64,000 nucleotides of DNA from Candidatus Omnitrophota bacterium (GTDB lineage Bacteria > Omnitrophota > Gorgyraeia > Zapsychrales > JANLHA01), in NCBI GenBank assembly GCA_022711395.1, contig JAKLFA010000001.1, positions 387,277 through 451,276 of the forward strand, written 5' to 3'. The stretch's first letter is position 1; every line of letters begins with the position of its first letter. This document shows positions 15,136 to 38,388 of this stretch, one piece after another. Both the position numbers and the translations under genes were made by a program. The notes beneath the pieces were generated by a model. It saw nothing but the letters and a program-made list of their open reading frames with translations. It had not been told where the DNA came from and searched no databases.

Positions 15136-17712
15136 ATGAATCGCAAAGCACAGCAAATCGTTGAATATCTCCTGTTGATCGCCAGTGTTATGGTGGTTTT
15201 TTTGGCTGTTTCCGGTCCCAATGGAATGATCCGCTGGAGGGTGGAAGATTCGATCAACCGGACCATTAACCTCATCAAAAAAGGGGATCCCCTTCCTTCA
15301 ACGGCCTATTATTGGGTTAAAGTTAACTGCGATTGTACTGGTCAGAGGGATTGTGTGTATCCTGGGGCGGCTGAGGTCTTTGTGAGCTGCACGTATCGGT
15401 GCATTCAGAATGGAACGGGCGCCAAAGTTGATGATTTTTTCTGTATCGATCTTTTGGGCTATAAACCGAACGCTCTTGGAAGTTGCGGGAATGGGCCATG
15501 CTGCGGTAACGCTAGAGTGGACGCGGCTTATGGTGAGCAATGCGACTCGAGCGCGGGATTTACACAGACGTGTAGCACCAGGCATACTCTCACAGACCCG
15601 GCTCGGAACACATGGTCGGGCAGCGTTCAATGCAACCAGTGCCGGATCATTGACACTTGCGTGGAAGTGGAAAACCCCGCGATCGCTCCTGTCTGCGGTG
15701 ATAACCGTCTGCAGTCGGCTGAGCGGTGCGATATGGTTAACGGCCGGCCGGTCTTTAATCCGGCATACGTGACCAATACGTCATGCATCGGCCGGAATAC
15801 GCCTGTCGCGCCGATCGTCGCTTTTACAGGAGGGTCTTTGGGTTGCAGCAACACCTGCCAAGTTGACGTTAGTAAATGTTACAGGTGCCCCACTTCATGG
15901 ACAGATGTTGGCTGCGGTACCAATGACACAGCATCGCTTCCTAATCCTACAGAGGAGGCACATTGTTTTAAAAACGGGACAAAATATCAGGAGCACACCT
16001 GCCGGTGGGGGACGAATCCCAGTAAGACATTCACGGAAGGGCGCTGTACGGCCGGCCCGGATTGCGGGAACCAGTGTAAGAACCGGGATCCATATTCCAC
16101 GATCTGCCCGCTGACGGTCCCATCAAGTTATACGATCGGTGATCATTGGAACTATGTGGATGCGCCGGCGAATTGCGGCATGAACACTATCTGCCAGGCA
16201 TCCTGTGACGGTGAATTGGTGGCGGTTGATGGCGGAACAGATTGTGATTGTGCGGTCGCGAATACGGTGTATAATGCCGGCACCAAAAAATGTGATTGTC
16301 CTTCCGGTTTTATTCATACCACAGACCGGGACGCGGCGTGTGATGTTTATGGCCCATGGAAAAAACCTGAAGTGGATATTTATACGGCATGGTCATCAGC
16401 GCTTTCTACTGCCAGCTGTTCCAGTTCAGCCATCCCAACGGATACATGTGATTCAAATCAGGTGGATGCATACAATTGTCCGGCTGATACAGCAAAGACC
16501 TGCGCGGATTCAACCTGCGTCTCTCTATATCATTCAAGCGTTTCCTATTACACCAGGACTGTGACCTGCGTGAACCCGCCGCCTACAACCACATATTCAA
16601 AGCGGACGTTAGCTTGCACACGGCCACGGGCTAGTTATATGGTAAATTATTTTAGTTGCGTGGATCCAGCGCCAGAGGCAACATACGCATATGATAATGT
16701 GACTTGCGCGGCTGGTGTTAAAAGCTCTACGGGTGCGGGTTCAAATGTTGTTTCGGGAACATGTGCCGCGAACGTGACAGATACATGTGACGGAGTGAAA
16801 ACAGCGGCGTATACATGCGGCGCTACCGAAACAAAAACATGCGTGGATGTTACAAGCTGTAGTGATGGTTTTGGCCCGGACAATGATACGATCACATCCA
16901 CGGAGGGGCCTTTTGATGTGGTAGGCGGCACGTATACATGTGCGAGTGCGCTGACAGATACCTGCAATGGAAATAAAATGGCGGCTTATGCGTGCGTTTC
17001 TGGTTTTAGAGGGACTTGCACGGATGTTGTCTGCACTGACACAGCTTCCGGGGCGGATACGATCACGGTGAATCCGTCCAATCCTATTACGGTTACGGGA
17101 ACATGCGCTGATAACGCTGAGGCGGATACCACGCCTTCCCCGAACAAATCAGCACAGTATACGTGTCAATTATTAGATGAGGGAACGTATACGGATATTT
17201 ATTCTTGTACGACTACTCCCGCTCCTGAAGGGGAGGGAGATACTTATGTTAACGCTACAGCGCCTGTTGTCTTGACTGGAACCTGTGGGACATGTGTTAA
17301 CGAAGGCTGTTTAAGGAGGCATCCGGAAACTGATGTTTGTCTTGAATACGGTAAATGCGTTGATGAGCCAGTAGGCTGCACACAGGGAACGTGCGGTGAA
17401 ACTCCTTTAACGGATACGTGCAATTCCGATAAGGCCGGCGCCTATACATGCGGTTCGGCAGAGGTAAGGACCTGCACGGATGTGGTTTGTGCGGCGGCGG
17501 CGAATGTGAATTACGCGAAGTATTCCACGCGAAGCATCACATGCAAGGCGCTCGGGGCTGATACATGCAACAATGTTCGTTCAGCTGAATATGATTGCCC
17601 CAATACGGTCCGAAAAACGTGCGTGGATGTTTTAAGCAATCCTCCGACCTTTGAAGGGTATCGCGATGTGACCTGCAGGACCTATAACGGAACATCCTGC
17701 GTTGCGCCATAA
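15136..17712 (+). CDS. Large secreted/surface Cys- and Thr-rich repeat protein with an Flp/Tad-pilin-like N-terminal processing motif.
   Basis: N-terminus MNRKAQQIVEYLLLIASVMVVFLAV matches the Flp 'G/XXXXEY + hydrophobic' class III signal, with Ala at -1. About 100 Cys. At least five ~28-aa modules T-D-T-C-[DN]-x-x-[KQR]-x-[AD]-[AE]-Y-x-C-x5-6-T-C-x-D-[VS]. No recognisable catalytic domain. Confidence 0.6.
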   Translation: MNRKAQQIVEYLLLIASVMVVFLAVSGPNGMIRWRVEDSINRTINLIKKGDPLPSTAYYWVKVNCDCTGQRDCVYPGAAEVFVSCTYRCIQNGTGAKVDDFFCIDLLGYKPNALGSCGNGPCCGNARVDAAYGEQCDSSAGFTQTCSTRHTLTDPARNTWSGSVQCNQCRIIDTCVEVENPAIAPVCGDNRLQSAERCDMVNGRPVFNPAYVTNTSCIGRNTPVAPIVAFTGGSLGCSNTCQVDVSKCYRCPTSWTDVGCGTNDTASLPNPTEEAHCFKNGTKYQEHTCRWGTNPSKTFTEGRCTAGPDCGNQCKNRDPYSTICPLTVPSSYTIGDHWNYVDAPANCGMNTICQASCDGELVAVDGGTDCDCAVANTVYNAGTKKCDCPSGFIHTTDRDAACDVYGPWKKPEVDIYTAWSSALSTASCSSSAIPTDTCDSNQVDAYNCPADTAKTCADSTCVSLYHSSVSYYTRTVTCVNPPPTTTYSKRTLACTRPRASYMVNYFSCVDPAPEATYAYDNVTCAAGVKSSTGAGSNVVSGTCAANVTDTCDGVKTAAYTCGATETKTCVDVTSCSDGFGPDNDTITSTEGPFDVVGGTYTCASALTDTCNGNKMAAYACVSGFRGTCTDVVCTDTASGADTITVNPSNPITVTGTCADNAEADTTPSPNKSAQYTCQLLDEGTYTDIYSCTTTPAPEGEGDTYVNATAPVVLTGTCGTCVNEGCLRRHPETDVCLEYGKCVDEPVGCTQGTCGETPLTDTCNSDKAGAYTCGSAEVRTCTDVVCAAAANVNYAKYSTRSITCKALGADTCNNVRSAEYDCPNTVRKTCVDVLSNPPTFEGYRDVTCRTYNGTSCVAP

Positions 17713-17765: not shown

Positions 17766-18029
17766 ATGGATAAAAAGAGATCAAAGACATTTCCGAAGAT
17801 CCAAAAAGATCTTAAATGCTTCCTGGAAAGTGAAGAAGGAAAGATCGTTGAAAAGGACGCCGTGAAGCTCGGCACTGCGATTGTGGCGGCGGGCGTCTTT
17901 TTGGGCAGCTTAGTGGCTCCTGTGGATGATGCCCATAGCGTGACCACGGGCCATTGTCAGCATGCCTCGCACGGAAGCCACGGAAGCCACGGAAGCCACG
18001 GAAGTCATTCGACCGGGGGCTGGTGTTAG
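17766..18029 (+). CDS. HxsA-like precursor peptide with C-terminal His-Xaa-Ser repeats.
   Basis: 87 aa. Charged N-terminal leader, hydrophobic segment LGTAIVAAGVFLGSLVAPV, then CQHASHGSHGSHGSHGSHSTGGWC. Preceded by a GAAGGAGA Shine-Dalgarno (SD) sequence and followed by four radical SAM genes in the same island. Confidence 0.7.
   Translation: MDKKRSKTFPKIQKDLKCFLESEEGKIVEKDAVKLGTAIVAAGVFLGSLVAPVDDAHSVTTGHCQHASHGSHGSHGSHGSHSTGGWC
17966..18005 (+). repeat. Perfect 9-bp tandem repeat (CACGGAAGC)x4 encoding the His-Gly-Ser repeats.
   Basis: Direct reading: cacggaagc cacggaagc cacggaagc cacggaagc cacggaagtcat. Confidence 0.9.
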
Positions 18030-18199: not shown

Positions 18200-19627
18200 A
18201 TGCAGGGCCTGGCATCATCTGAGCAAGAGATGAGATTGAGAAGATTGTTCGCGGATCTTTTGATCAAAAAAGGATACGAAAAAGAGGTCTATCTGCTTGA
18301 CCTGAGCGCCTTTTTTAAGAGCCATGGAGTTTACACCTTATCCGAAGTGCAGGACCTTTGGAGAGGGCATTTGTCCAAAGCGGAAGTCTGCCGGCATTAT
18401 TTTTCTCTTTATGTGCACATCCCGTTCTGCCGGAAGCGATGTTCATTTTGCCGGCATTATGAATGGACCTGCAGCAGTGAGAACCAGCTGCGGCTTTATC
18501 TTGATTCGCTGGTCTTTGAGATCCGGGCGTTCAAAGAGATATTTTCTGGTGTTATGTTCAAAAGCCTTTATGTCGGCGGCGGGACGGCGAACATTTTAAG
18601 CCCGGAGCAGATCGATCGTCTTTTGTCAGAGATCGACCTAAATTTTAGATTTGATGATCACGCGGAGAAGACATTTGAATGCAATCCCAATGAGTCCTCC
18701 ATGGAAAAACTATCTGTTTTCGCGGGCCATGGGATCAACCGTGTTTCGTTCGGGGTGCAGAGCTATTCTCAGGATGTTCTGGGATGCACTCATCGCGCTC
18801 ATCAGAGTGAGGAGATGGTCGCCTCAGCCATCAGGGATGCGCAGAGATTCCCGGCTTTTCATAAGATCAATGCGGATCTGTTGATCGGGCTGCATAATGA
18901 CAGCCCGAAAACGGTGTGTGACAGTTTTCTTAAACTTGCGCAACTTGGCACAGGATCGATCTCGCTTTATGCTCTTAAGCCGCCGCTGCATTATATTAAA
19001 AAATATTATCGAGGACGGCAGGACCTCTATGATGAGGCCCTATCGGAAAAATTAAGGGACTTTGAACGCCTGGTCGCGCCGATCACAGAAGAATTTGATT
19101 ATGTTTTTACGCCCCTAAAGGAAATTAGGGCGAACTTTGACGCATGGATGTTCACCCTGCGAAAGAATTATCATACCGGGCGCATCTATAAATATGTGAC
19201 CGCGGAATTCCCGATCGATTGCCTGGGCCTTGGAACAGGCGCGGTCTCGACGATCACGGATCACGCTTTTTACAAGAACCAGAGCTTTACGCCGTCCGCG
19301 CAGGGCGGGACCTTTGAGCAAAACGGCAGATACCGAGGCTGTTTGAAATATGGGCCTAAAGAGCAAAGAGTGTTGTTCATTCTGGGGGAGATCGCCACAT
19401 GGAACCGTATTTCGAAAACCCAATACCGGGGGATGTTCGGATCAGATATTACGGCTGACTTTACGGTTGAACTCGAGCGGCTTTCAGCATTGGGCGTTGT
19501 GAGCCTGACTGACGCGTTCGTTATTTTTGAGAGGAAGAAGCCGGAGGAGAGGTTCTTTTACGCGCTGTTTTTTTTGGACCATAAGATGATCTTTGATGCA
19601 ATGGAAAAACTAAAAACAAAAGTCTGA
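18200..19627 (+). CDS. HemN-like (class C) radical SAM enzyme.
   Basis: YVHIPFCRKRCSFCRHY (HemN-type CxxxCxxC) and LYVGGGT. It immediately follows the Hxs-type precursor peptide. Confidence 0.75.
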   Translation: MQGLASSEQEMRLRRLFADLLIKKGYEKEVYLLDLSAFFKSHGVYTLSEVQDLWRGHLSKAEVCRHYFSLYVHIPFCRKRCSFCRHYEWTCSSENQLRLYLDSLVFEIRAFKEIFSGVMFKSLYVGGGTANILSPEQIDRLLSEIDLNFRFDDHAEKTFECNPNESSMEKLSVFAGHGINRVSFGVQSYSQDVLGCTHRAHQSEEMVASAIRDAQRFPAFHKINADLLIGLHNDSPKTVCDSFLKLAQLGTGSISLYALKPPLHYIKKYYRGRQDLYDEALSEKLRDFERLVAPITEEFDYVFTPLKEIRANFDAWMFTLRKNYHTGRIYKYVTAEFPIDCLGLGTGAVSTITDHAFYKNQSFTPSAQGGTFEQNGRYRGCLKYGPKEQRVLFILGEIATWNRISKTQYRGMFGSDITADFTVELERLSALGVVSLTDAFVIFERKKPEERFFYALFFLDHKMIFDAMEKLKTKV

Positions 19628-19648
19628 TTTCATAAGCGGACGTTCAAG

Positions 19649-21481
19649 ATGCCAGTCGCAAAATCCAAAAATAATTCTGCGGGCGCGGTCCGAAAAAAGG
19701 ACGCCCCCTATGTCATTTCAGCAGCCTATCATTGTAATAACGCGTGCCTGTTCTGTTATAACAAGGGCGGGCAGAATATCCGTCCTCAATTGAGCTTTGA
19801 TGAGATGCTCCGGCAGATCGAACAAGCCGCCGGGGCAGGGTATAAAAAGGTCGCTTTTTTCGGGGGGGAATGCACGGTCGAGCCGTATTTTTTTGATCTG
19901 CTCAAGGTCGCCAAAAAATTCGGTTTAAAGGCCCGGCTGGAAACCAACGGCCAGATGTTCGCAGAGACGGACTTTTTGAGGCGATTGAAAGAATTCGACC
20001 TGGATTCATGCCAGTTTTCTTTTCATACTTATGAGGAATCGGTGCATGATGAGTTGACGCGCAATCCGGGCGGATTCCGCAAGACCGTCAAGGGCATCCT
20101 GAATTTTAAAAAAGCCTTTCCCCATGTCAGGCTGGACAGTTACACCGTGATCACCCGCCGGAACGTGCGTCAATTGTATAAGACGGCCTGTTATCTTCAC
20201 AAATTCTTTGGCGTGCAGGAGGCGTTCTTTTCGTTTTTGATCTCTCCGGCGGAGAGGGAAAATTTTAAGCGCCTCGCCGTTTCGTTCAATGACGCCCGTC
20301 CCTGTTTGCAAAGGGCGCTGGACTATCTTTCTGGCCATAACCTTCCGTTCCGGATCGATAAATGCCCGAAATGCGTATTTCCCCAGTATCACGAGCTTCA
20401 TCATTATGAAAAAGGGGTCTTTGATCCGGATGATTACTGCAAGCATGCGGTCTGTGAAAGCTGTCCGCTTTCTGCGGATTGCCCGGGATTCAGTAAACAA
20501 TACGTGGCTGTTTTCGGATTTGATGGCCTGCGGCTGGGAGGATTTCAGCAGGATGAGCTGAAATATTTTTTTGCCGGGCTGAATATGGGAGCGTTAAAGA
20601 GCGTGAAACGATCGCTGACCTTTGATGAGTTCAACAATCCAGTGCTGAACTTTGAGAGGGAAGAGGGGGGCTGGGAGCAGATCTGCAAAGATGTCAATAT
20701 CCCATTGTGCGCGATTAAAAGCACAGGAAAGCTGATCGACATCTGGAATGATTTTCAATTTACGCCGGAGTTTGTTGAAAAAGCGCTTCGTCAAAACAGA
20801 ACAGTGTCCTGTGAAGATTTATCCAGGGCTGTGTGTCAGCAGTTGAGGAAAGATTTTAAGGCGAAGGTCAGTGAGGAAAATGTCCTTTTGACCGCCGGTT
20901 CCCGTCCGGCGTTGTATGCCGCGTTCCTTGCGCACATAAGGCCGGGCGACCTGGCCGTTCTTAAAGAGGGCATGTGGGACGGCTATCGCTATGGTCTTGA
21001 TCAGACCGGGGGCCGGGTCGTTGAGGTTTCTTCTTACGATGAACTGGAGAATGTCGGTTCGGATGAGCTGCGGCTGGTGATCGTCAACAACCCTCAGCTG
21101 CCTTCCGTGCGCCAGCGGTTGTCTGAAAAGGAAATCAGGAAGCTCATCTCTTTTTGCAATCAGCGGGGAACGTTTTTGCTCGTCGATGAGATCGGTAACC
21201 GCCTTTCTCCTGACCCGTTTTCGGTCCTTTCGCATTGTGATATGTCTAAAGACCGCGTGATCGTGACCCAGTCATTTTCTAAAAATTATTTTATTCCTCA
21301 ATATAAGGCCGGTTATGCGGTGGCGCATCCTGAGATCATTTCAAAGATCAAACGGATCATTGATTTCAGCGGATATCCGATCGCGCCCCGGTCCGTTCAG
21401 GCAGCGCATGCGGTTCTCTGTTCACCTCAGCAGTGGCAGAAAGAAAAGGCCGCCATGATCTATAAAAAAGGGACGTGGTAA
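19649..21481 (+). CDS. Radical SAM domain fused to a C-terminal PLP-dependent class I/II (HisC-like) aminotransferase-fold domain.
   Basis: N-terminal CNNACLFC (CxxxCxxC) with GGE. The C-terminal ~250 aa align to the aminotransferase fold, including SFSKNYFIPQYKAGYAVA. Compare hisC in this window: [18 protein letters not shown], the pyridoxal-Lys motif. Confidence 0.6.
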   Translation: MPVAKSKNNSAGAVRKKDAPYVISAAYHCNNACLFCYNKGGQNIRPQLSFDEMLRQIEQAAGAGYKKVAFFGGECTVEPYFFDLLKVAKKFGLKARLETNGQMFAETDFLRRLKEFDLDSCQFSFHTYEESVHDELTRNPGGFRKTVKGILNFKKAFPHVRLDSYTVITRRNVRQLYKTACYLHKFFGVQEAFFSFLISPAERENFKRLAVSFNDARPCLQRALDYLSGHNLPFRIDKCPKCVFPQYHELHHYEKGVFDPDDYCKHAVCESCPLSADCPGFSKQYVAVFGFDGLRLGGFQQDELKYFFAGLNMGALKSVKRSLTFDEFNNPVLNFEREEGGWEQICKDVNIPLCAIKSTGKLIDIWNDFQFTPEFVEKALRQNRTVSCEDLSRAVCQQLRKDFKAKVSEENVLLTAGSRPALYAAFLAHIRPGDLAVLKEGMWDGYRYGLDQTGGRVVEVSSYDELENVGSDELRLVIVNNPQLPSVRQRLSEKEIRKLISFCNQRGTFLLVDEIGNRLSPDPFSVLSHCDMSKDRVIVTQSFSKNYFIPQYKAGYAVAHPEIISKIKRIIDFSGYPIAPRSVQAAHAVLCSPQQWQKEKAAMIYKKGTW

Positions 21482-21498: not shown

Positions 21499-23097
21499 TT
21501 AAGGCAGGATCTTGTAGAATGTGTAACGGGCCTTGCCTTGATCGTATGAACGGTATTCTTCCATCCTGTAACTGCTTTTCATGATCCCGCACAATTCCCC
21601 TTCAGCGGCCGACATTTGGCAGATCAGATCATCGAAAAAGAGAACGCAGTCCGTTGAACGCAAGATGTTTCCTCGCTCCGCATGGTTTTCCAGGAAAAAG
21701 CTGAGATCGACCACGTTGAGTTCAGTGGTGGACCGCAGGATCGTTGGGTGGTTGGCAATGATCAGGCAGCCGGAAGGGATGTCTTTTTCCGCCAGCTCCG
21801 GGACGCGGGTCTCCAGCCGGTGTCCGTCACCGCCGAACATCTTTGACACCGGGTCAACGTAAGGGAGGCAGGAGCTTATTAAAAGGCCCACGATGAGAAT
21901 GCGCATGGCCGTTTGCGCGGAAGGCCGTTTGATTTTTTGCGTAAAAAAGACCAAGCCCTCAGAGAGCGCCGATGCGGCAAAAATGCCCAGGACAGGGTAA
22001 AAACTGAGAACGATCCGCCCCTTTCCCAGCAGGGCGTCTTCGCCGCCCAGGGTCTTTATCCAAGAGGAGAAATAGGCGGCCCACCAAAAGACGAGCCACA
22101 GGCACAGGAATGAAAATATTTTTCGGTCCTTGATGAGGAGCAGGATAGCCCCGATAAGCGAAAGAAAAGAGAAAAGAAGCGGCTGCATGGATCCGTTAAA
22201 AATGGAGATGCCGTAATGCCGTGTGTTGTAAAACAAATTTTGGAGGCTCCAGTTGGCTCCGCGGATGCCGGTATATTCTGCGACCTCGCTGAAGTTCAGG
22301 GAGGAATAATAATGAAGGACTTGCGCGAGATTGGGCAGGCTTAAGGCAATAAACAGCAGCCAGGCGAAGACGTATGATACAGGAGGCGTTACGTTGTTTT
22401 TTTCTCCCAGGATCCAGTTTCCCGCCGGGAACAAAAGAAAAAGGATATAATTTTCCGGCCTGAATTGTGCCGCAAGGCATATCGCAGACAGGGAGAGCCA
22501 AAAAAAGGCGCGGGTCTTTTTTTGAAAATAAAGAGAACATGCCGTTACGGCCAGGCAGACCATGAAGAGTGAAACGACATTGGTTTCGGCTGTGGCCGAC
22601 CAGCGGATATGGATCGGCTGAAGGCCTATCAGCAGAGCGGCAAAGATGGCTGTTGTTTTTTTATTCGTGATGGCAAAGGTCAGAAAAAACACTGCAGCGG
22701 CTGAAAGAGCCCCGATAACGATCATCCCGTAAAGCGCGACCCAGTTGTTGGTTCCGAACACGAAAAAAAATGAGCTTAAGAGAAAAGGCCAGCCGATCGA
22801 TTTGGGATAATCCCCCGAGTGGCCTGTTTGCAGGATGTGTTTGGCTGCCTCCATATACCATGGTTCATCCAAATACATCACATGCTGGATCGGCGGGACC
22901 AAAAGGCGCAAGGCGAGAGAAAAGAGAACAATGACGGCAAGCCATCCATAAGCAGCGCCGCCGGCCTTTGACGCGAACTCCGAGAGATTTTTACGGTTCT
23001 GAGCGAGCAGAAATAAAAAGATGATCCATGAGAACAGGGCGCATGCCGGGATGGCGGCGGAAAGAGTTTCGGCTATGGAGCGTAAGAACATTGTCAT
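21499..23097 (-). CDS. Polytopic membrane protein, GT-C-fold glycosyltransferase-like (ArnT/PMT family-like).
   Basis: At least 12 TM helices and a first-loop acidic motif …HVMYLDEPWYMEAAKHI… resembling the GT-C DE/DD motif. Function is inferred from architecture. Confidence 0.45.
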   Translation of the reverse strand: MTMFLRSIAETLSAAIPACALFSWIIFLFLLAQNRKNLSEFASKAGGAAYGWLAVIVLFSLALRLLVPPIQHVMYLDEPWYMEAAKHILQTGHSGDYPKSIGWPFLLSSFFFVFGTNNWVALYGMIVIGALSAAAVFFLTFAITNKKTTAIFAALLIGLQPIHIRWSATAETNVVSLFMVCLAVTACSLYFQKKTRAFFWLSLSAICLAAQFRPENYILFLLFPAGNWILGEKNNVTPPVSYVFAWLLFIALSLPNLAQVLHYYSSLNFSEVAEYTGIRGANWSLQNLFYNTRHYGISIFNGSMQPLLFSFLSLIGAILLLIKDRKIFSFLCLWLVFWWAAYFSSWIKTLGGEDALLGKGRIVLSFYPVLGIFAASALSEGLVFFTQKIKRPSAQTAMRILIVGLLISSCLPYVDPVSKMFGGDGHRLETRVPELAEKDIPSGCLIIANHPTILRSTTELNVVDLSFFLENHAERGNILRSTDCVLFFDDLICQMSAAEGELCGIMKSSYRMEEYRSYDQGKARYTFYKILP

Positions 23098-23121: not shown

Positions 23122-24060
23122 TTAACGGAAGTAGATCCCTAATGAATCGCCTTCCCAGGTCAGGTAAGAAACGGCTCCGCCGCATTGCTTTAAATATTGC
23201 TTAGAGCTGTCCCACCACGTCAAAAGATGCTCGTCTTTAAAATTAAAGACTGGAAGTTCAGGGGCTGGCAGCGCCGTTTCCAAACGGGCCCAGATCTTGG
23301 TTGAAGAGACCGAGGCCTCCGGTGTGATGCGGTGCAGATATCCGATGTGGCGCAAAGGCATTTGTTTGACCCAGAGTAAAAATGGGGTGAGGAACGCAGA
23401 TCCGTCCCTTGAGCATTGATGGATGATCTCGTCATAGAACGCATCATGAAACGGGGCGGATGAATACGGGTAGATCTTTAAAGAACAATTGCCGCTCGGT
23501 CCGAAGTCTATTCCGATGGCGTCCAGCGTTATTCCTGAAATAAGCGTCTTTAACGCGGCCCGATTGATCCGCAGATCTTCAGCGATCGAAAGGAGAGAGT
23601 CGTCCGCTTTATGACAGGTGTTGATCAGGCTGATGTATGTTTTTAGCAAAAGGCGGCCGTCCTTATTAAGAGTGAAGCCAAACTGCATCGGCCAGTTGGT
23701 TTTTGAAATGGATTTGAAGGCTCCTTCAAGGATATGGACCTGTTGTTGCGTTAATGTTGGTTCCTGCTTTGAAAGAATATGCAGGGCGCGGTAGATCTCA
23801 AAAAAACGCTCTTTGCAGAGGGCCTGTTGGAATTCAAAAGGTCGGTCCGCGTCAAAGAAGCGCAAGTGGAGGAGCCGAAGGTCATCCGTTTTTGAGCTCA
23901 GCGAGAATTCAAAGATGCCCGATTGGGAAGAAAGCGCAGTGCCGGGTTTTTCCAGCAGCTTAAACAGGGAGCTGAAATCCAGCGGCGGGATGTTCCAGTG
24001 TTTTGTCAGGTCTGTGATGAAACGTTTTGCTTGGGAGCTGTCCATGGCTGATAAGGTCAA
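23122..24060 (-). CDS. Hypothetical protein (312 aa) in the rSAM island.
   Basis: Long ORF with coding-like composition, translationally coupled to the upstream rSAM (4-nt overlap). I recognise no family. Confidence 0.45.
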   Translation of the reverse strand: MTLSAMDSSQAKRFITDLTKHWNIPPLDFSSLFKLLEKPGTALSSQSGIFEFSLSSKTDDLRLLHLRFFDADRPFEFQQALCKERFFEIYRALHILSKQEPTLTQQQVHILEGAFKSISKTNWPMQFGFTLNKDGRLLLKTYISLINTCHKADDSLLSIAEDLRINRAALKTLISGITLDAIGIDFGPSGNCSLKIYPYSSAPFHDAFYDEIIHQCSRDGSAFLTPFLLWVKQMPLRHIGYLHRITPEASVSSTKIWARLETALPAPELPVFNFKDEHLLTWWDSSKQYLKQCGGAVSYLTWEGDSLGIYFR

Positions 24061-25208
24061 TATTGATAAAGTTGGATGAACCGCGGATCATATTTTAACG
24101 CGGACTTGATCTTTAAGAAAGTTCGGACATAGATTTTGGAGATACAGCAGAAAGCCGTGTAAAGACGCCGGCTTTGGACGGCGCGTTCGGTCTCGAATGT
24201 CTTTGTGTAGAGGAGATGTCCGATCGGGCAGAAACAATATTTATAGATGGAGCACTCTGAGCACTCGAGCCCGGATTCGGCGGTGAATTCATCGCGCAAT
24301 TTTTTCAGTAAACGCAGGCGTTTATCGTCATCGATCCCTTCGCAGGCGTTTCCGATGGCGTAGTCTTTTCGCATGGCGGGGTCAAGAGAGAAGACTTTGT
24401 CGCAGACATAGAATTGCTGATCGTTCCCGAAAGAGAGCTTTCCGCAGCGTTCCATTTTATCGACCTCGATCCCGTTGACGAGCGTGTCAAGAAATGCGTT
24501 CTTAAAGACCGGGGCGTTACGTTGAAACAGCTCGATATAATAGCGTTCAAAATCTTCAAAGGATCTTTCCATGGACCGCAGGTCGTTCGTGTTCCAGTGG
24601 GCGTATTGGTCAGGATAGAATTCGATCGAATAAAAATCCTTGGCGCTTAAAAAGCGGATATTGTCCAGAAGACGGCTCACGTTTTGTGGGGTGAACACCA
24701 TCGCGGCGGAAAGTCTGAAGGTGGTGCCGAGGCGCTCCATGTTCCGCATGATCGCATCAAAGCTGGACCGGTCAGGGTTGTTGCGGAATGGGCGGTTCTC
24801 ATCATGGGTCAGTTTGTCGCCATCGATGCTGATCTTGATGATGGTGTCTTCTTTGGCGATCGAGCGGAGGATGTCCTTATCCAGGAGGGTGCCGTTGCTG
24901 ATGATCGCCACATCTAAGCGGGTCTTGTTTTCCTGGGCTTTTTTTCGGGCGTAGTCGCAGAGCGCTCTTAAAAGTCCGATCTCAAGGGTCGGCTCGCTGC
25001 CGTTAAAACTTAAGGTCTTGTGTTTTCCGGGATAGCTGAAGAGCAGGTCGATCGATCGTTTCAAGGATTCTTCATCATCCGGAGAATGCTTGAAATCCGT
25101 CTTTTTTAGGAAGCAGTATTTACAGTCGAGGTTGCATTGGCCGGTGAAAAAGAAATTCAGCGTGGACGGCGAGTCGTGGGGGATTATGGGGTTATTCGGA
25201 TCTCTCAT
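24057..25208 (-). CDS. Radical SAM/SPASM-domain protein (anaerobic sulfatase-maturase-like); HxsB/HxsC candidate.
   Basis: Start revised to ATG 25208 (MRDPNNPII…). The ORF-track N-terminal 74 aa are low-complexity and would overlap the upstream gene by 238 nt. CNLDCKYC lies near the N-terminus. The C-terminus has Cys clusters (CEGIDDDKRL…CSECSIYKYCFCPIGH…). Confidence 0.7.
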   Translation of the reverse strand: MRDPNNPIIPHDSPSTLNFFFTGQCNLDCKYCFLKKTDFKHSPDDEESLKRSIDLLFSYPGKHKTLSFNGSEPTLEIGLLRALCDYARKKAQENKTRLDVAIISNGTLLDKDILRSIAKEDTIIKISIDGDKLTHDENRPFRNNPDRSSFDAIMRNMERLGTTFRLSAAMVFTPQNVSRLLDNIRFLSAKDFYSIEFYPDQYAHWNTNDLRSMERSFEDFERYYIELFQRNAPVFKNAFLDTLVNGIEVDKMERCGKLSFGNDQQFYVCDKVFSLDPAMRKDYAIGNACEGIDDDKRLRLLKKLRDEFTAESGLECSECSIYKYCFCPIGHLLYTKTFETERAVQSRRLYTAFCCISKIYVRTFLKIKSALKYDPRFIQLYQY

Positions 25209-26691
25209 AGAGATGAGCGGCCATCCGCCGGAACCAGTCGTCGAAGACGGCCCGTATTTTTTTGTTCTTGAGCTTTTTGAACAGATGATCAAAGATCGCC
25301 ATTTTGATCTTGCAGCTGTCTGTCGCCGGGATCTGGGGGAAGAGATTGCCGTATTCCACGAAATTGACCAGCGGGCAGACGCCGCAGTATGGTTTGTAAG
25401 CACAGTCTGAGCAGCTGGCCTGGTTATCAAGGCAAGATGAGATGCATAGCGTCTTCGTGACTTCGTTGTCGATCAGGTCGCTAAACCGGCTGGTATTGAC
25501 ATGTCCGATCTGAAAATTCCCGTAACCCATACGGCTGGACATCCGCCCTTCATCGCAGGAATAGATCGCGCCGTCGTAGTTGAAGGCCATTTGGCCGATG
25601 CTGGCGCCGCAAGGATTGCGCATATCATAAAAACAGGGGTCATCGTTCTTGAGGATCTTGGACAAAGCAAAAAAAGCGTTACGTTCCAGTATGAACGTGC
25701 CCTTCGAATTCAACTCCAGGATATAATCCAGCGCGCGCTTGTAAAAGGTGATGAACTTTTCGGATTTATAGCTGATGAGTTTGTGTGTTTTGCGCTCCAG
25801 GCCGAACGGATTGAGCGGGCGCAGGAAAATGTTATTGAATCCCAGGGAAATATATTCATCAATGATCTCTTTGGCGTAGGGAAGCGAGAATTTTGTGATG
25901 GTCGTGATGGCGTTGAGCTGGTCAATGAATTGAGAAGGGGAACCTTTACGCTTTTGCCGGATGGCCGCATTGATCTTTTTGATCTGCTTGACAACGATGG
26001 CATGGCTTTTACCGGAACCGAGAAATGGCCGGTTTTTGTCGTGCACTTCAGCTGGTCCATCCAGCGAGGTGACGATGCTCACGTTATGATCGAGCAGGAA
26101 CTTGAGCTTTTCATCATCCATCAGGATGAGGTTGGAGATCACCGTGAGCTTAAGCCGTTTTTTATGGATCTCGGCCATGTTTTGAGAATATCCGACCATA
26201 TATTGCAGGACCGGCCAATTCAATAACGGCTCTCCTCCCTGGAATTCGATATGGACATTTTGTGAAGGCCCTTGAAAAATAAGGTCCAGCGCCTTTTTGG
26301 CGGTCGCCTCATCCATGTCATAACCATGCGTGTCGCAGGTTTCCGGAGTGGATTGGCAGTAAAGGCAGCGTTGGTTGCAACGCAAGGTCAGGATGATCAG
26401 GAAAAGCGAGGGGCCCCGGTAAGCGGAGTTGTGAAGGCGGAGGTACTTTGAGGCCTGCTCAGCCAGTTTGTTTCGGTCGGTCCGGTCGATGTCAATGAAC
26501 TGTTTGTCCCGTAGCTCTTGATAGAGCGGTTCATCTTTTGTAATGGAATTTTCAAGCAAACGCTTGAAATCCACCTGGTCCAGGCAGGCCCAATCGCCGC
26601 AGTCATTGGTAACGATGTAATCGTTGTTGACCCTGCGGAAACGGATATTGCCCAGGTGAGAACAGGTGGCTGCTTTTTTAGGGTTGCGCAT
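25192..26691 (-). CDS. Radical SAM/SPASM-domain protein with a ~110-aa N-terminal extension; HxsB/HxsC candidate.
   Basis: Start revised to ATG 26691 (MRNPKK…); the upstream ORF-track residues are low-complexity. CNQRCLYC lies ~110 aa in from the start. The C-terminus has SPASM-like Cys clusters (…CISSCLDNQASCSDCAYKPYCGVCP…). Confidence 0.65.
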   Translation of the reverse strand: MRNPKKAATCSHLGNIRFRRVNNDYIVTNDCGDWACLDQVDFKRLLENSITKDEPLYQELRDKQFIDIDRTDRNKLAEQASKYLRLHNSAYRGPSLFLIILTLRCNQRCLYCQSTPETCDTHGYDMDEATAKKALDLIFQGPSQNVHIEFQGGEPLLNWPVLQYMVGYSQNMAEIHKKRLKLTVISNLILMDDEKLKFLLDHNVSIVTSLDGPAEVHDKNRPFLGSGKSHAIVVKQIKKINAAIRQKRKGSPSQFIDQLNAITTITKFSLPYAKEIIDEYISLGFNNIFLRPLNPFGLERKTHKLISYKSEKFITFYKRALDYILELNSKGTFILERNAFFALSKILKNDDPCFYDMRNPCGASIGQMAFNYDGAIYSCDEGRMSSRMGYGNFQIGHVNTSRFSDLIDNEVTKTLCISSCLDNQASCSDCAYKPYCGVCPLVNFVEYGNLFPQIPATDSCKIKMAIFDHLFKKLKNKKIRAVFDDWFRRMAAHLYERSE

Positions 26692-26896
26692 GGGCGATCT
26701 CGAGATAGAGGACATAGTTTTTGAACTCACTGATAAAGATTTCTGCGTCGTCCAATTGTCCGTCGTCATCAACGGAGACATGGAAATACTGCCCCTTTGA
26801 GCGGATCTCAAACTTGCCGAAATCCTTGAATTGTTCAAAGGCGGCTTCAATGTGCGCTTGTGAGTATAAATTTTTATGAAAAGGGATTGTCAGCAT
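26678..26896 (-). CDS. Small hypothetical protein (72 aa) immediately upstream of the SPASM rSAM pair; possible accessory protein or second substrate.
   Basis: Tight spacing: 2 nt after the upstream gene and a 14-nt overlap with the downstream rSAM. I have no family assignment. Confidence 0.4.
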   Translation of the reverse strand: MLTIPFHKNLYSQAHIEAAFEQFKDFGKFEIRSKGQYFHVSVDDDGQLDDAEIFISEFKNYVLYLEIAHAQP

Positions 26897-26897
26897 T

Positions 26898-27401
26898 TTA
26901 CTGCAAAGGTCTTTTTATGTTCAACGGATCTTCTTCGTAGGTTCCCGCAGAAAAATCTTCCTGCTCCAGTTCTTTCTTGAGAGCTTCGATCTCCTGTTCG
27001 ATCTTTTTGATGTCATCCTCATCACTGTTGGCGCGTGAAGGTTCTTGCGGCCCTTTGGATGAGGAGGGAAGGGCGGCGTTAATGGCCCCTCCAACGATAT
27101 ATTCAATGATCGTTTTATTTTTTTGGGCGATCTCTTTGCGGACGGATGCATTGAGAAGTTCATTCAAGAATTCATTGCGGAGCGCTTCGAGCTGCTTTTT
27201 GGTTGATCGTGTCTTTGTTTTCAACAAGACGGTGAACTCATCTTTTTTCGGGGCGTCGATATAAACATAGACTTTGTCTACGATGATGTAGCAAGCCTTT
27301 AAAAGGACCTCTTTGGGATAGATTTTAGGATGAACGGAGAAGACAATCTCTGAATCCTTCGTGTTAATCCGTGTTTTGCTGGATTTTTCGAAATTATTCA
27401 T
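26898..27401 (-). CDS. Hypothetical protein (167 aa) with an acidic coiled-coil C-terminus; HxsD-like candidate.
   Basis: First gene of the minus-strand rSAM operon. Contains …FLNELLNASVRKE…, loosely reminiscent of the LLNDYxLRE motif I recall for HxsD. This similarity is weak. Confidence 0.4.
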   Translation of the reverse strand: MNNFEKSSKTRINTKDSEIVFSVHPKIYPKEVLLKACYIIVDKVYVYIDAPKKDEFTVLLKTKTRSTKKQLEALRNEFLNELLNASVRKEIAQKNKTIIEYIVGGAINAALPSSSKGPQEPSRANSDEDDIKKIEQEIEALKKELEQEDFSAGTYEEDPLNIKRPLQ

Positions 27402-29310: not shown

Positions 29311-29381
29311 GCGTATTAGAAGAAGGCTTTTTATCCCGTATTTTATGCCGGCCGTGGAGGGCTTGATCTTTTTTTTGGTCT

Positions 29382-30576: not shown

Positions 30577-31473
30577 ATGAAAAAAGCGGATATCAAAACC
30601 GGGTTTTTATGCAATTCCAACTGCCGTTTCTGCGTTCAGGGTGACCTCAAAAAGGCCCTTGGCAATAAATCGGCTGCTGAGCTTAAAGAGATCATCAAGG
30701 AGGCCAGCCGCGACTGCGGGATCCTGGTCTTTACCGGAGGGGAAGTGTGCGTGCGGGAGGATATTCTTGAGCTTGTCGCGTATGCCCGGCAATTCCCTTT
30801 TCACACAATACAGATCCAATCCAACGGCCGTGTGTTTATGGACGAGCGTTTTTGCGCGGACGTGATCTCCGCCGGGGCCAATGAGTTCGCCCTGGCGCTT
30901 CACGGCCATACGCCGGAACTTCATGATTATCTGACCCAAAGCGCCGGCTTTAAACAGACGATCCGCGGCATTCGGAATTTAAAAAAACTCGGCCAGCGTG
31001 TTCTTGTGAACACGGTGGTGACCAAACCAAATTACCGCCACCTGCCGGATATTACAAAATTGCTGATCAGCCTGGATGTTGACCAGATGCAGCTGGCCTT
31101 TGTGCACGCGCTGGGTTCGGCCGCATTGAATTTTGAAAGCATGGTCCCGCGACTGACGCTGGTGATGCCCTATGTCATCCGAAGTATCGTGATCGCCCGT
31201 CATTTTGACAGGCAGATCGTCACGGAGGCTATTCCGTATTGTTTTCTTAAAGGTTATGAAGGGCATGTTTCCGAGCAGGTCATGCCTATCATGAAGATCT
31301 TTGAACATGATCATGTTGTGGCCAACTTCACGGAATCCAGGTTGACCGAGGGCAAGCTGAAAGGCCCGGATTGTCCGCAATGCGCTTATTACGAGGCATG
31401 TGAAGGATCGTGGAAAGAATATCCCCAAGCCTTCGGATGGGATGAATTCGTGCCGGTGAGCAGGGAACGATGA
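30577..31473 (+). CDS. Radical SAM protein (small, ~300 aa), first of three tandem paralogs.
   Basis: CNSNCRFC at residues 12–19, GGE motif (FTGGEV), C-terminal CPQCAYYEACEG. Confidence 0.75.
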   Translation: MKKADIKTGFLCNSNCRFCVQGDLKKALGNKSAAELKEIIKEASRDCGILVFTGGEVCVREDILELVAYARQFPFHTIQIQSNGRVFMDERFCADVISAGANEFALALHGHTPELHDYLTQSAGFKQTIRGIRNLKKLGQRVLVNTVVTKPNYRHLPDITKLLISLDVDQMQLAFVHALGSAALNFESMVPRLTLVMPYVIRSIVIARHFDRQIVTEAIPYCFLKGYEGHVSEQVMPIMKIFEHDHVVANFTESRLTEGKLKGPDCPQCAYYEACEGSWKEYPQAFGWDEFVPVSRER

Positions 31474-32606: not shown

Positions 32607-32611
32607 GAGCA

Positions 32612-35718: not shown

Positions 35719-35882
35719 AAGTCCACATCCGTGTTGCGTTCAACTGATTTTGTGAAAGATAACACTTTCTACAATCTTTGTCAAGAAGCATATTTTTGGG
35801 CCTCATGAGCGCCCTAATTTGTAACTATTTTATTTACAAATATTTGTGTTAATTTAGAAATGGCTTGGTTGAAACCGCTTTC

Positions 35883-35911
35883 TTGACACTCTCGGGGGGC
35901 TGTGTTATACT
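35883..35911 (+). promoter_or_regulatory. Consensus sigma70 promoter (TTGACA-N17-TATACT) for the cvpA-dnaG-rpoD operon.
   Basis: TTGACA at 35883–35888, 17-nt spacer, TATACT at 35906–35911. It lies about 55 nt upstream of cvpA. Confidence 0.55.
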
Positions 35912-38383: not shown

Positions 38384-38388
38384 GATAC

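What the first reader, a model, noticed from the sequence alone, without database searches (positions are those of the whole stretch)
18200..21481. HemN-like rSAM plus an rSAM fused to a HisC-like PLP aminotransferase domain next to the HxS peptide
HemN-like (class C) rSAMs in RiPP clusters typically do C-methylation or cyclopropanation. The next gene fuses a CxxxCxxC rSAM core to a class I/II aminotransferase-fold domain. Its SFSKNYFIPQYKAGYAVA mirrors the hisC pyridoxal-Lys motif ([18 protein letters not shown]) found in this same window. I do not know of a described rSAM–HisC-like fusion. Sitting beside a His-rich substrate suggests paired radical/PLP chemistry (transamination, decarboxylation or beta-elimination) on His or Ser side chains or on a small-molecule cosubstrate.
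Basis: partly seen in the sequence, partly recalled or inferred. Interest (0 to 1): 0.8.

Follow-up and report, generated by a model that had tools for sequence, protein, structure and literature searches.

The report
Radical-SAM enzyme fused to PLP domain
A rare, conserved two-part enzyme in a few Omnitrophota genomes joins a radical-SAM peptide-modifying domain to a shortened vitamin-B6 (PLP) aminotransferase-type domain beside a His-x-Ser repeat peptide; the architecture is undescribed and its chemistry is still unknown.

Summary

The Schiff-base Lys (K545, SFSKNYF), Asp513 and the CxxxCxxC motif are invariant in all homologues.

The PLP domain is not a normal aminotransferase:
- It stops 65 residues after the Lys, against a median of 150 in 81 stand-alone aminotransferases. 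It therefore lacks the small domain and its universally conserved Arg.
- The NPTG Asn is Leu and the DExY Tyr is Gly.
- It is not specifically HisC-like.

The fusion is real: five independent contigs, a conserved linker, and dN/dS of 0.07-0.17. It is also very rare, with four clusters among 1.84 billion representatives, Omnitrophota where the source is named.

It is an accessory gene. Six related HxS clusters share the same core genes but have no PF00155 gene.

No paper describing such a fusion was found. Paired radical/PLP chemistry on the peptide is plausible but untested. A non-catalytic scaffold role is not excluded.

The parts
17766..18029 (+). 87-aa His-x-Ser repeat precursor (HxsA3-like). 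It has a conserved leader FLESEEGKIVEK, a hydrophobic segment, and the core C-x-H-x-S-(HGS)4-HSTGGWC.
   Evidence: ORF. NCBIfam HxsA3 50.5 bits (cut-off 65) and HxsA4 35 bits. Orthologues in L001 and L002. 132 family members.
18200..19627 (+). 475-aa HemN-like rSAM protein (CRKRCSFC; GGGT motif). It is not an equivalog of HemN, HemW or ChuW.
   Evidence: Orthologues at 87%, 71% and 39% identity in L001, L002 and L003. More distant HemN-like genes (26-33% identity) in the non-fusion loci L006-L008.
19649..21481 (+). 610-aa fusion protein: HxsC-like rSAM, a linker, and a truncated class I aminotransferase-fold domain.
19706..20482 (+). rSAM half (residues 20-278). It holds CxxxCxxC (C29/C33/C36, nt 19733-19756), a GGE motif (G72-E74), and four invariant C-terminal Cys (C242, C269, C272, C278), probably ligands of an auxiliary Fe-S cluster.
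   Evidence: TIGR03977 HxsC 90.9 bits, covering profile positions 27-289 of 292, below the 267.9 cut-off. Cys conservation. pLDDT 80-92 for the barrel.
20495..20680 (+). Conserved linker or N-terminal arm (residues 283-344), 43-82% identical among homologues.
   Evidence: dN/dS 0.13.
20681..21478 (+). PLP-fold domain (residues 345-610). K545 lies at nt 21281-21283. D513, S542, S544, W443 and G417 are conserved. L484 replaces the NPTG Asn and G516 replaces the DExY Tyr. The protein ends 65 residues after the Lys.
21499..23097 (-). 532-aa PMT_2-type (GT-C) membrane protein, convergent with the fusion. It was found only in fusion-carrying loci.
   Evidence: tblastn (L001 87%, L002 49% partial, L003 49%; absent from L006-L008).
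23122..24060 (-). 312-aa protein with no family match.
24057..25430 (-). PapB-like rSAM/SPASM peptide maturase. The longest-ORF start probably overcalls: 383 aa is called in L001.
   Evidence: NF047865 154.6 bits, below the 340 cut-off. Orthologues in L006-L008.
25192..26850 (-). HxsB rSAM/SPASM maturase.
   Evidence: TIGR03978 494.3 bits, above the 370 cut-off.
26678..26896 (-). HxsD-like small protein.
   Evidence: NF038315 63.4 bits, above the 41 cut-off.
26898..27401 (-). HxsD.
   Evidence: TIGR03976 56.7 bits, above the 50 cut-off.
30577..33547 (+). Three stand-alone HxsC-like rSAM paralogues (298, 378 and 311 aa). They belong to the core shared with non-fusion clusters.
   Evidence: Orthologues at 50-73% identity across L003 and L005-L008; the third paralogue has an orthologue only in L003, L005 and L007.
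33544..34521 (+). Peptidase_A24 (prepilin-type) peptidase at the end of the cluster.
   Evidence: Also in L003, L005 and L007.
15136..17712 (+). 858-aa Cys/Thr-rich protein with a Flp/Tad-like N-terminus (QQIVEYLLLIA), directly upstream of the precursor. It was seen only in fusion-carrying loci.
   Evidence: No family hit. tblastn matches in L001 and L002 only.

Best explanation
What is shown. The 610-aa protein is a genuine bifunctional-type maturase of an Omnitrophota-specific, enlarged His-Xaa-Ser (HxS) peptide system. It consists of:
- an HxsC-family rSAM domain with an intact CxxxCxxC motif, a GGE motif and a four-Cys auxiliary motif;
- a conserved linker of about 60 residues;
- the large (PLP-binding) domain of a class I aminotransferase fold.

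The PLP domain keeps the Schiff-base Lys, the pyridine-N Asp and the residues at the phosphate-contact positions. It has lost the C-terminal small domain with its conserved Arg, which by textbook knowledge clamps the substrate alpha-carboxylate. It has also lost the Asn and Tyr that, by textbook knowledge of AspAT, hydrogen-bond PLP O3'.

What is inferred. The open, carboxylate-clamp-free active site suits a peptide-bound substrate rather than a free amino acid. My most likely mechanism has two steps:
1. The rSAM half abstracts a hydrogen atom from a residue of the HxsA3-like peptide. The candidate is a Ser of the HGS repeats, treated as anSME treats Ser. This produces a carbonyl or unsaturated intermediate.
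2. The PLP/PMP half processes that intermediate on the same polypeptide. The candidate reaction is transamination of the aldehyde or ketone to an amine, for example Ser to formylglycine to 2,3-diaminopropionate. This parallels the ketone-to-amine step in daptide biosynthesis.

The HemN-like neighbour is a separate tailoring rSAM enzyme, probably a class C-type methyl or methylene transferase. Both genes decorate the product of the core HxsB / PapB-like / HxsD machinery.
For: Architecture:
- Both Pfam domains match with strong E-values.
- HxsC is the best NCBIfam match for the N-terminal half, across nearly the whole profile.

The fusion is real:
- It is one continuous ORF of 609-611 aa in five independent contigs at 38-86% identity, all ending at the same position.
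- dN/dS between the window and L001 is 0.07 (rSAM), 0.13 (linker) and 0.17 (PLP domain).
- The PLP domain is as conserved as the rSAM domain: 38.6% against 36.1% identity to the most distant member.

The active-site pocket is constrained:
- K545, D513, S542, S544, W443, G417 and L484 are invariant. That is 7 of 10 canonical PLP-site positions, against a 24% background (hypergeometric P = 0.002).

The substrate is not a free amino acid:
- The Arg present in 81/81 stand-alone aminotransferases lies beyond the fusion's C-terminus.
- The fusions have 65 residues after the Lys, against a median of 150.

The peptide context is consistent:
- The HxS precursor, the HemN-like gene and the fusion are adjacent and co-directional in the window, L001 and L002.
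- HxsB and HxsD pass their curated cut-offs.

Precedents:
- HxsB, HxsC and HxsD mature HxsA, with a site-specific modification in an S-H-x-S-S motif (PMC13128918).
- A PLP aminotransferase acts on a peptide C-terminal ketone in daptides (PMC10028931).
Against: - No biochemical data exist for any member.
- The residues that normally hydrogen-bond PLP O3' are replaced: Asn to Leu, and Tyr to Gly (Val in P0009).
- The Arg266-equivalent phosphate ligand is K, R, or W in P0009. PLP binding itself is therefore unproven.
- The family has only about six sequences, so conservation statistics are weak.
- Six related clusters make similar ...(HxS)n..GGWC precursors without any PF00155 gene. The core peptide gives no hint of a fusion-specific target residue.
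- The fusion co-occurs with an 858-aa Cys-rich protein and a PMT_2 protein, either of which could point to a different substrate.
- Inter-domain geometry is not reliable (pTM 0.60; residues 248-294 have pLDDT about 30).
Confidence: 0.45

Rival explanations
1. The aminotransferase-fold domain is not a catalyst. It would instead be a dimerisation, scaffold or ligand-sensing module that organises the HxsC-like rSAM domain. Fold type I domains are obligate dimers, and MocR/GabR regulators keep the Lys and bind PLP without turnover (both from my own knowledge).
For: - The small domain is lost, and so are Asn, Tyr and the universal Arg.
- The R266 equivalent varies, with W in P0009.
- dN/dS is about twice as high in the PLP domain (0.17) as in the rSAM core (0.07).
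- HxsC-like rSAM domains are very often joined 2-4 times in one polypeptide in metagenomes. This suggests selection for oligomeric arrangement, which a dimeric domain could also supply.
- Canonical HxsC works with a partner protein, HxsD (PMC13128918).
Against: - The Schiff-base Lys, Asp, Ser-x-Ser and the stacking Trp are invariant down to 38% identity.
- PLP-site positions are conserved more than background (P = 0.002).
- The replaced positions (L484, G516) are themselves fixed. That looks like a remodelled pocket rather than a decayed one.
Confidence: 0.3
2. The PLP domain acts on a small molecule rather than on the peptide. Candidates are SAM, methionine or another amine or keto acid. The product would be attached to the peptide or removed from it. 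Precedents are ACC-synthase-type enzymes of the same fold, or rSAM plus PLP enzyme pairs that act on SAM.
For: - The closest named families are small-molecule enzymes: GntC, methionine aminotransferase YbdL and CobD.
- A separately encoded rSAM methylase and PLP ACC-forming enzyme act on SAM in norcoronamic acid biosynthesis (PMC7277169, abstract listed).
Against: - The Arg conserved in 81/81 relatives, taken to bind the alpha-carboxylate, is absent, together with the lid domain.
- All matches to named families are far below their cut-offs.
- No transporter or small-molecule pathway genes accompany the fusion.
Confidence: 0.12
3. The fusion's substrate is not the HxS peptide. It would instead be the adjacent 858-aa Cys/Thr-rich protein with a pilin-like N-terminus, with the PMT_2 membrane protein as part of the same accessory module.
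For: - The 858-aa protein and PMT_2 were found only in fusion-carrying loci: the window, L001 and L002 for the former; those plus L003 for the latter. Neither is in L006-L008.
- No PMT_2 gene is called in L006-L011.
- The core sequence of the precursor does not differ between fusion and non-fusion clusters.
Against: - The rSAM half is most similar to HxsC, a peptide maturase of HxS proteins.
- The gene lies in the same transcriptional direction directly after the precursor and the HemN-like gene.
- In L005 and L003 the fusion sits among the HxsC-like paralogues.
- Only three loci inform the co-occurrence.
Confidence: 0.12
4. The fusion is an assembly or frameshift artefact that joins two neighbouring genes.
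For: None found. All members come from metagenome assemblies.
Against: - The same continuous 609-611-aa ORF occurs in five independent assemblies from different projects at 38-86% identity.
- The linker is conserved and the C-terminus is identical in position.
- Purifying selection acts across the junction.
Confidence: 0.01

Closest known systems
HxsC of the His-Xaa-Ser (HXS) system (TIGR03977). The system is HxsD-HxsB-HxsC-HxsA and is an antiphage defence in Pseudomonadota (Li et al., Nat Commun 2026, PMC13128918).
   Same: - HxsC is the best family match for the N-terminal 290 residues, across the whole profile.
- The gene sits in a cluster with bona fide HxsB and HxsD and an HxS-repeat precursor.
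   Different: - The score (90.9 bits) is far below the equivalog cut-off (267.9).
- Four equally distant HxsC-like paralogues occur in the cluster.
- The protein is fused to a PLP-fold domain.
- The precursor is an 87-aa HxsA3-type peptide. It matches no family other than HxsA-type models and is much shorter than the canonical HxsA, whose residues 48-214 were mapped by MS and which carries a peptidoglycan-binding domain.
- The host is Omnitrophota, whereas 99.7% of described systems are in Pseudomonadota.
- The locus sits among housekeeping genes.
Class I (subgroup I-gamma-like) aminotransferases and related enzymes of the PF00155 fold: YbdL 1u08, TM1255 AspAT 1o4s, DapC-like 2dou, BacF 6l1l, GntC 8fft.
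   Same: - The Schiff-base Lys, Asp, Ser-x-Ser-Lys and aromatic stacking residue are present.
   Different: - About 85 C-terminal residues are missing, namely the small domain with the Arg present in 81/81 relatives.
- The NPTG Asn is Leu and the DExY Tyr is Gly.
- Identity to any stand-alone aminotransferase is at most 28%, taking hits that cover at least two thirds of the domain.
- The domain is covalently attached to an rSAM domain.
HisC, histidinol-phosphate aminotransferase (TIGR01141).
   Same: Same Pfam family. The Lys motifs align: SFSKNYF...YKAGYAVA against TFSKIYA...LRVGYAIA.
   Different: - 55.4 bits against a cut-off of 276.6.
- 22% identity to the window's own HisC.
- Several other subfamilies score higher.
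Daptide biosynthesis: oxidative decarboxylase plus PLP aminotransferase plus methyltransferase (PMC10028931).
   Same: It is a precedent for a PLP aminotransferase acting on a carbonyl generated on a ribosomal peptide, a substrate without an alpha-carboxylate.
   Different: - The daptide enzyme is a class III aminotransferase (PF00202) encoded separately.
- The carbonyl is made by an NAD(P)-dependent dehydrogenase, not an rSAM enzyme.
- The target is the peptide C-terminus.
PLP-dependent rSAM aminomutases (the lysine 2,3-aminomutase group; the SFLD 'PLP-dependent' subgroup, PMC9477430).
   Same: They are the only well-known enzymes that combine rSAM and PLP chemistry in one polypeptide (plus own knowledge).
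   Different: - In aminomutases PLP binds within the rSAM barrel protein itself and no fold type I domain is present (own knowledge).
- Their substrates are free amino acids.
HemN / class C rSAM methyltransferases (HemN 1olt; NocN 9p2u), for the 475-aa neighbour.
   Same: - rSAM core with CxxxCxFC and GGGT motifs.
- The best PDB matches are HemN (113 bits) and NocN (77 bits).
   Different: - It falls below every NCBIfam cut-off: hemN 141/325, HemW 131/205, ChuW 123/400.
- No HemN_C Pfam domain was detected.
- It is embedded in a peptide-maturation cluster.

Membership tests
Radical SAM superfamily (both genes) | PF04055 match above the gathering score, plus a CxxxCxxC cluster motif | tested here: met
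   PF04055 scores 41.9 bits (475-aa protein) and 73.1 bits (610-aa protein) against a cut-off of 29.5. The motifs are CRKRCSFC and CNNACLFC. The motif is invariant in the five full-length fusion homologues.
HxsC (TIGR03977 equivalog) | Score above the curated cut-off of 267.9 bits | tested here: not met
   90.9 bits. HxsC is the best hit and covers profile positions 27-289 of 292. The protein is HxsC-like, not an equivalog.
His-Xaa-Ser system (Haft and Basu; HXS of PMC13128918) | Co-located HxsB, HxsD and an HxS-repeat HxsA | tested here: met
   HxsB 494 bits (cut-off 370). HxsD 56.7 bits (cut-off 50). HxsD-like 63.4 bits (cut-off 41). The precursor carries H-x-S six times, but its HxsA3 score of 50.5 is below the 65 cut-off.
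His-Xaa-Ser system (canonical four-gene form) | [quoted passage not shown] | tested here: not met
   The genes lie on two strands. There are four HxsC-like genes, plus PapB-like and HemN-like rSAM genes. The 87-aa precursor has no such domain (compare).
Aminotransferase class I/II (PF00155), fold type I PLP enzymes | Pfam gathering score, and the fold of the large domain | tested here: met
   [not shown]
Aminotransferase class I/II | Schiff-base Lys and pyridine-N Asp | tested here: met
   K545 and D513 align with columns that are K in 81/81 and D in 81/81 aminotransferases. Both are invariant in 6/6 fusion-family sequences.
Aminotransferase class I/II | PLP O3' ligands: the Asn of NPTG and the Tyr of DExY | tested here: not met
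   L484 stands where 71/81 have Asn. G516 stands where 76/81 have Tyr (V in P0009).
Aminotransferase class I/II | C-terminal small domain with the alpha-carboxylate-binding Arg | tested here: not met
   The Arg column (81/81) lies beyond the C-terminus of all fusions. They have 65 residues after the Lys, against a median of 150 and a minimum of 134.
Aminotransferase class I/II | PLP actually bound, and transaminase activity | not testable with these tools
   This needs UV-visible spectra, borohydride trapping and activity assays.
HisC (TIGR01141) | Score above 276.55 bits | tested here: not met
   55.4 bits.
HemN / HemW / ChuW equivalogs (475-aa gene) | Scores above 325, 205 and 400 bits respectively | tested here: not met
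   140.9, 131 and 123.2 bits. The gene is HemN-like only.
Class C rSAM methyltransferase (475-aa gene) | Binding of two SAM molecules and methyl or methylene transfer | not testable with these tools
   The only evidence is sequence similarity to NocN, 77 bits.

The most novel reading that the evidence does not exclude
The fusion would be the first single-polypeptide rSAM/PLP peptide maturase. The HxsC-like half would oxidise a Ser (or another residue) of the HxS repeats to a peptidyl carbonyl. The lid-less aminotransferase-fold half, in its PMP form, would convert that carbonyl to an amine, for example Ser to 2,3-diaminopropionate. This would install a new class of cationic or metal-binding residue in a ribosomal peptide. 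It would also define a peptide-directed branch of class I aminotransferases.
Probability: 0.2. Interest if true: 0.8.

Novelty: new variant of a known kind. Interest (0 to 1): 0.6.

Why it matters
The His-Xaa-Ser system was only recently given a function, as an antiphage gatekeeper, and the chemistry of its rSAM enzymes is still unsolved (a +8 Da change of unknown structure, PMC13128918). This locus belongs to a much larger, rSAM-rich version of that system in Omnitrophota and Elusimicrobia, with at least 130 precursor homologues. The version has not been described in the papers I could search.

One rare branch of it has welded a PLP-fold domain onto an HxsC-like enzyme. If the domain is catalytic, this is a new way of combining radical and carbanion/imine chemistry on a ribosomal peptide. 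It also shows how a fold type I enzyme can be pared down, by losing its lid and carboxylate clamp, to accept a macromolecular substrate.

The fusion also offers a practical handle. A Lys-to-Ala variant should give a clean intermediate, which could reveal what HxsC-type enzymes do.

Tried and rejected
- First AF2 run. A four-sequence alignment gave an unusable PLP domain: mean pLDDT 58, with many segments below 50. I collected 84 aminotransferase homologues and repeated the run.
- AFDB50 fold search. The aim was to look for the same two-domain architecture in UniProt. The library was unavailable.
- GTDB species-representative scan. It found only one locus, identical to L003, so it added no new members.
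- PADLOC. It gave only generic viperin-type rSAM hits, and the HXS system is not represented.
- Literature. Searches for an rSAM-aminotransferase fusion, for peptide aminotransferases, and for Omnitrophota rSAM clusters found nothing on this architecture.
- A doubtful alignment column. MAFFT placed the aminotransferases' conserved N-terminal Tyr (80/81) against Y285 of the fusion. That column is separated from the next aligned block by about 110 gap columns and lies in a region of pLDDT about 30. I treat it as unreliable and do not claim the Tyr70-type residue is present.
- The missing small domain. I asked whether it is encoded by a downstream gene. The next gene is a convergent PMT_2 gene in the window, L001 and L002, and an rSAM gene in L003 and L005. 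It is not.
- The upstream partial gene in L005. I asked whether it is HemN-like. It is not. It weakly resembles the 312-aa unknown protein.
- Inter-domain geometry. I could not measure the distance from the Fe-S cluster to K545, because model coordinates are not exposed and pTM is only 0.60.

Full report
**1. Observation**

The window has two adjacent, co-directional ORFs exactly at the stated coordinates: 18200-19627 (475 aa) and 19649-21481 (610 aa). They are 21 nt apart.

The 475-aa protein:
- It matches PF04055.
- It resembles HemN, STM4012, HemW, HemZ and ChuW at 123-141 bits, all well below their curated cut-offs.
- Its only solved relatives by sequence are HemN (1olt, 113 bits) and the class C methyltransferase NocN (77 bits).

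The 610-aa protein:
- It carries PF04055 at residues 27-178 (E 3.8e-20) and PF00155 at residues 391-598 (E 6.6e-18).
- The Lys motif aligns with that of the window's own hisC gene (46875-47969), at 22% identity over 186 residues.

Directly upstream, 17766-18029 encodes an 87-aa peptide ending HCQHASHGSHGSHGSHGSHSTGGWC. Its best family match is HxsA3, at 50.5 bits against a cut-off of 65.

**2. What the rSAM half is**

The best NCBIfam match for residues 21-282 is TIGR03977, HxsC, the second rSAM maturase of the His-Xaa-Ser system. The match covers profile positions 27-289 of 292 but scores only 90.9 bits against a cut-off of 267.9.

The surrounding genes confirm the system:
- On the opposite strand lie HxsD (26898-27401, above cut-off), an HxsD-like protein (26678-26896, above cut-off), and HxsB (25192-26850, 494 bits against 370).
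- Next to them are a PapB-like rSAM/SPASM enzyme (24057-25430), a 312-aa protein of unknown family, and a PMT_2 membrane protein (21499-23097).
- Further on are three more stand-alone HxsC-like rSAM genes (30577-33547) and a prepilin-type peptidase (33544-34521).

The cluster therefore spans about 15.1-34.5 kb and encodes seven rSAM proteins.

Besides the CxxxCxxC motif, four C-terminal Cys (C242, C269, C272, C278) are invariant in the five full-length homologues, and the GGE segment (G72-G73-E74) is invariant in the four closest full-length sequences.

**3. What the PLP half is**

phmmer against the PDB aligns residues about 390-590 with class I aminotransferases (TM1255 AspAT, YbdL, MJ0684), with Lys on Lys.

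The first AF2 run used four sequences and modelled this half poorly. With an 88-sequence alignment, residues 370-610 reach pLDDT about 90. That model matches class I aminotransferases in two searches:
- Foldseek: E about 1e-15, about 260 columns, rmsd about 2.8 A.

The domain is nevertheless not an ordinary aminotransferase. I compared it with 81 stand-alone relatives:

| Feature | 81 stand-alone aminotransferases | Fusion family |
|---|---|---|
| Schiff-base Lys | K in 81/81 | K545, kept |
| Pyridine-N Asp | D in 81/81 | D513, kept |
| NPTG Asn | N in 71/81 | Leu484 |
| DExY Tyr | Y in 76/81 | Gly516 |
| Arg266 equivalent | R in 76/81 | K or R; W in the most distant member |
| Residues after the Lys | median 150, minimum 134 | 65 |
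| C-terminal Arg (taken, by position and textbook knowledge, to be the alpha-carboxylate clamp) | R in 81/81 | absent; the protein ends before it |

Other points:
- No downstream gene supplies the missing small domain.
- The domain is not specifically HisC-like. GntC (85 bits), methionine aminotransferase (78) and CobD (73) outscore hisC (55), and all are far below their cut-offs.
- The nearest stand-alone aminotransferases are only about 28% identical.

**4. Is the fusion real, and how common is it?**

- A word-indexed search of 5.8 billion proteins found three full-length homologues at 86, 61 and 55% identity, plus one partial identical sequence annotated as Candidatus Omnitrophota.
- A profile search of 1.84 billion representatives, followed by a local HMM check, found only four clusters carrying the PLP domain. 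One of them is a further full-length member at 38% identity (P0009).
- The GTDB species scan found one locus, an Omnitrophota MAG.
- All members are 609-611 aa and end at the same position.
- The linker is conserved at 43-82% identity, and the PLP half is as conserved as the rSAM half.
- dN/dS between the window and L001 is 0.07 (rSAM), 0.13 (linker) and 0.17 (PLP half). The HemN-like gene gives 0.19.
- Seven of ten canonical PLP-site positions are invariant, against a 24% background (P = 0.002).

The fusion is therefore a genuine protein under selection. It is very rare. Where the source is named it comes from Omnitrophota: three of the five contigs (the window's near-identical partial sequence, L001 and L003); L002 and L005 carry no taxon label.

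**5. Comparative context**

The precursor family is much larger: 132 hits, mostly from Omnitrophota and Elusimicrobia MAGs. They share the leader FLxSEEGKIVEK, and most end in the core C...(HxS)n...GGWC.

Six such loci without the fusion (L006-L011) have the same kinds of genes. tblastn confirmed the shared core for L006-L008; for L009-L011 only gene calls and Pfam content are available:
- HxsD, HxsD-like, HxsB, the PapB-like enzyme and the precursor;
- a HemN-like rSAM and the HxsC-like stand-alone paralogues (the first two in L006-L008; the third only in L007);
- the peptidase (called in L007 only).

They have no PF00155 gene. Instead they carry other extras, such as YcaO, a B12-rSAM enzyme and a diphthamide-synthase-like protein.

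tblastn shows the following:
- The rSAM half of the fusion has orthologues only in fusion loci, with 25-27% identical paralogues elsewhere.
- The three stand-alone HxsC-like genes have orthologues at 50-73% identity across L003 and L005-L008, though the third lacks one in L006 and L008.
- The PMT_2 protein and the 858-aa Cys-rich protein upstream of the precursor occur only in fusion loci.

The fusion is therefore an optional accessory, possibly part of a small module with those two genes.

**6. Mechanism**

Shown:
- an intact rSAM site;
- a selected PLP-fold domain that retains Lys and Asp;
- absence of the lid and carboxylate clamp;
- adjacency to an HxS precursor within a bona fide HxsB/HxsD cluster.

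Known from the literature:
- HxsB, HxsC and HxsD mature HxsA, with a +8 Da change in an SHRSS motif, and HxsC binds HxsD (PMC13128918).
- A PLP aminotransferase can act on a carbonyl generated on a ribosomal peptide (daptides, PMC10028931).

Inferred:
- The lid-less site accepts a peptide-bound group.
- The rSAM half generates a carbonyl or unsaturated intermediate, most simply Ser to formylglycine as anSME does (own knowledge).
- The PLP/PMP half transaminates it, or otherwise resolves it.

I give this about 0.45. The specific Ser-to-Dap version gets about 0.2.

The main rival (about 0.3) is that the domain is a non-catalytic dimerisation, scaffold or sensor module. Three observations support that rival:
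- the lost O3' ligands;
- the variable Arg266 position;
- the striking tendency of HxsC-like domains to occur as 2-4 tandem copies in one polypeptide.

Lesser rivals are a small-molecule substrate and a different protein substrate, the 858-aa protein. An assembly artefact is effectively excluded.

**7. The HemN-like gene**

It is conserved next to the fusion in the window, L001 and L002 (87% and 71% identity) and occurs in L003 (39%, two copies). More distant HemN-like genes (26-33% identity) occur in the non-fusion loci L006-L008. It therefore belongs to the broader cluster type rather than to the fusion.

It fails every equivalog threshold and shows no HemN_C domain. A class C-type methyl or methylene transfer is the reasonable guess but is untested.

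**8. Novelty and verdict**

The searchable literature describes no rSAM-aminotransferase-fold fusion. The known 'PLP-dependent' rSAM enzymes are the aminomutase group (that they lack a fold type I domain is own knowledge).

I could not query domain-architecture databases or AFDB. Unrelated fusions of the same two Pfam families elsewhere cannot be excluded.

I classify this as a new variant of a known kind: an HxS-system rSAM maturase with an added, remodelled PLP domain.

Interest is 0.6. The architecture is real, rare, under selection and chemically suggestive, and it sits in an undescribed, large rSAM-rich branch of the HxS system. Its function remains inferential, however, and the family is tiny.

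Noticed in passing
window 15136-17712 (+) and 33544-34521 (+): An 858-aa Cys/Thr-rich protein has no family match. Its N-terminus, MNRKAQQIVEYLLLIASVMVVF, looks like a Flp/Tad-type (XXXXEY) prepilin signal. A Peptidase_A24 prepilin peptidase gene closes the cluster. The large protein was found only in fusion-carrying loci (L001 73% identity; L002 about 50%, in pieces).
   Followed up: partly
window 30577-31473, 31470-32606, 32612-33547 (+): Three stand-alone HxsC-like rSAM paralogues, all below the HxsC and HxsC4 cut-offs, have orthologues at 50-73% identity across L003 and L005-L008; the third lacks one in L006 and L008. The cluster type carries HxsC-like genes as a conserved set rather than a single HxsC.
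   Followed up: partly
proteins P0010-P0155: In metagenomes the HxsC-like rSAM domain is very often repeated 2-4 times within single proteins of 550-1400 aa. These would be tandem multi-rSAM 'assembly line' polypeptides.
   Followed up: no
window 21499-23097 (-); L001 8913-10511; L003 868-2484: A PMT_2 (GT-C, protein O-mannosyltransferase-like) membrane protein occurs in every fusion locus that is long enough, and in none of six non-fusion loci. It may glycosylate the Ser-rich peptide or the 858-aa protein.
   Followed up: partly
window 17766-18029; proteins P0242-P0361: The precursor belongs to a family of more than 130 small proteins from Omnitrophota and Elusimicrobia. They share a very conserved leader (F-L-x-S-E-E-G-K-I-V-E-K) and a hydrophobic helix, and most have a core in which two Cys flank the HxS repeats (C...(HxS)n...GGWC). 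NCBI names a few of them HxsA4.
   Followed up: partly
L006, L007, L010: Related clusters without the fusion carry other tailoring genes in its place: a YcaO, a B12-binding rSAM, a diphthamide-synthase-like ATP pyrophosphatase, and a MiaB-like (UPF0004) rSAM. The accessory set is highly variable.
   Followed up: no
window 11759-15061, 34537-39978; L007 3697-6444; L011 115-2825: The cluster lies among housekeeping genes: SMC upstream and GGDEF, DnaG and RpoD downstream. In relatives it follows ftsA-ftsZ. This is unlike the mobile defence-island context described for the proteobacterial HXS system.
   Followed up: no
window 24057-25430 and 25192-26850 (-): The longest-ORF calls of the PapB-like and HxsB genes overlap by about 240 nt. 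Gene calls in L001 (383 and 499 aa) suggest later true starts.
   Followed up: no
window 23122-24060 (-), 28546-30329 (-): Proteins of 312, 308 and 315 aa match no Pfam or NCBIfam family. The 312-aa and 315-aa proteins have weak (21-26% identity) counterparts in non-fusion clusters (L007, L008) and, for the 312-aa protein, in L005; the 308-aa protein was matched only in L001.
   Followed up: no
proteins P0158-P0168: The closest stand-alone relatives of the PLP domain are chorismate-mutase-aminotransferase fusion proteins of Nitrosopumilus, at about 77 bits and 26-28% identity.
   Followed up: no
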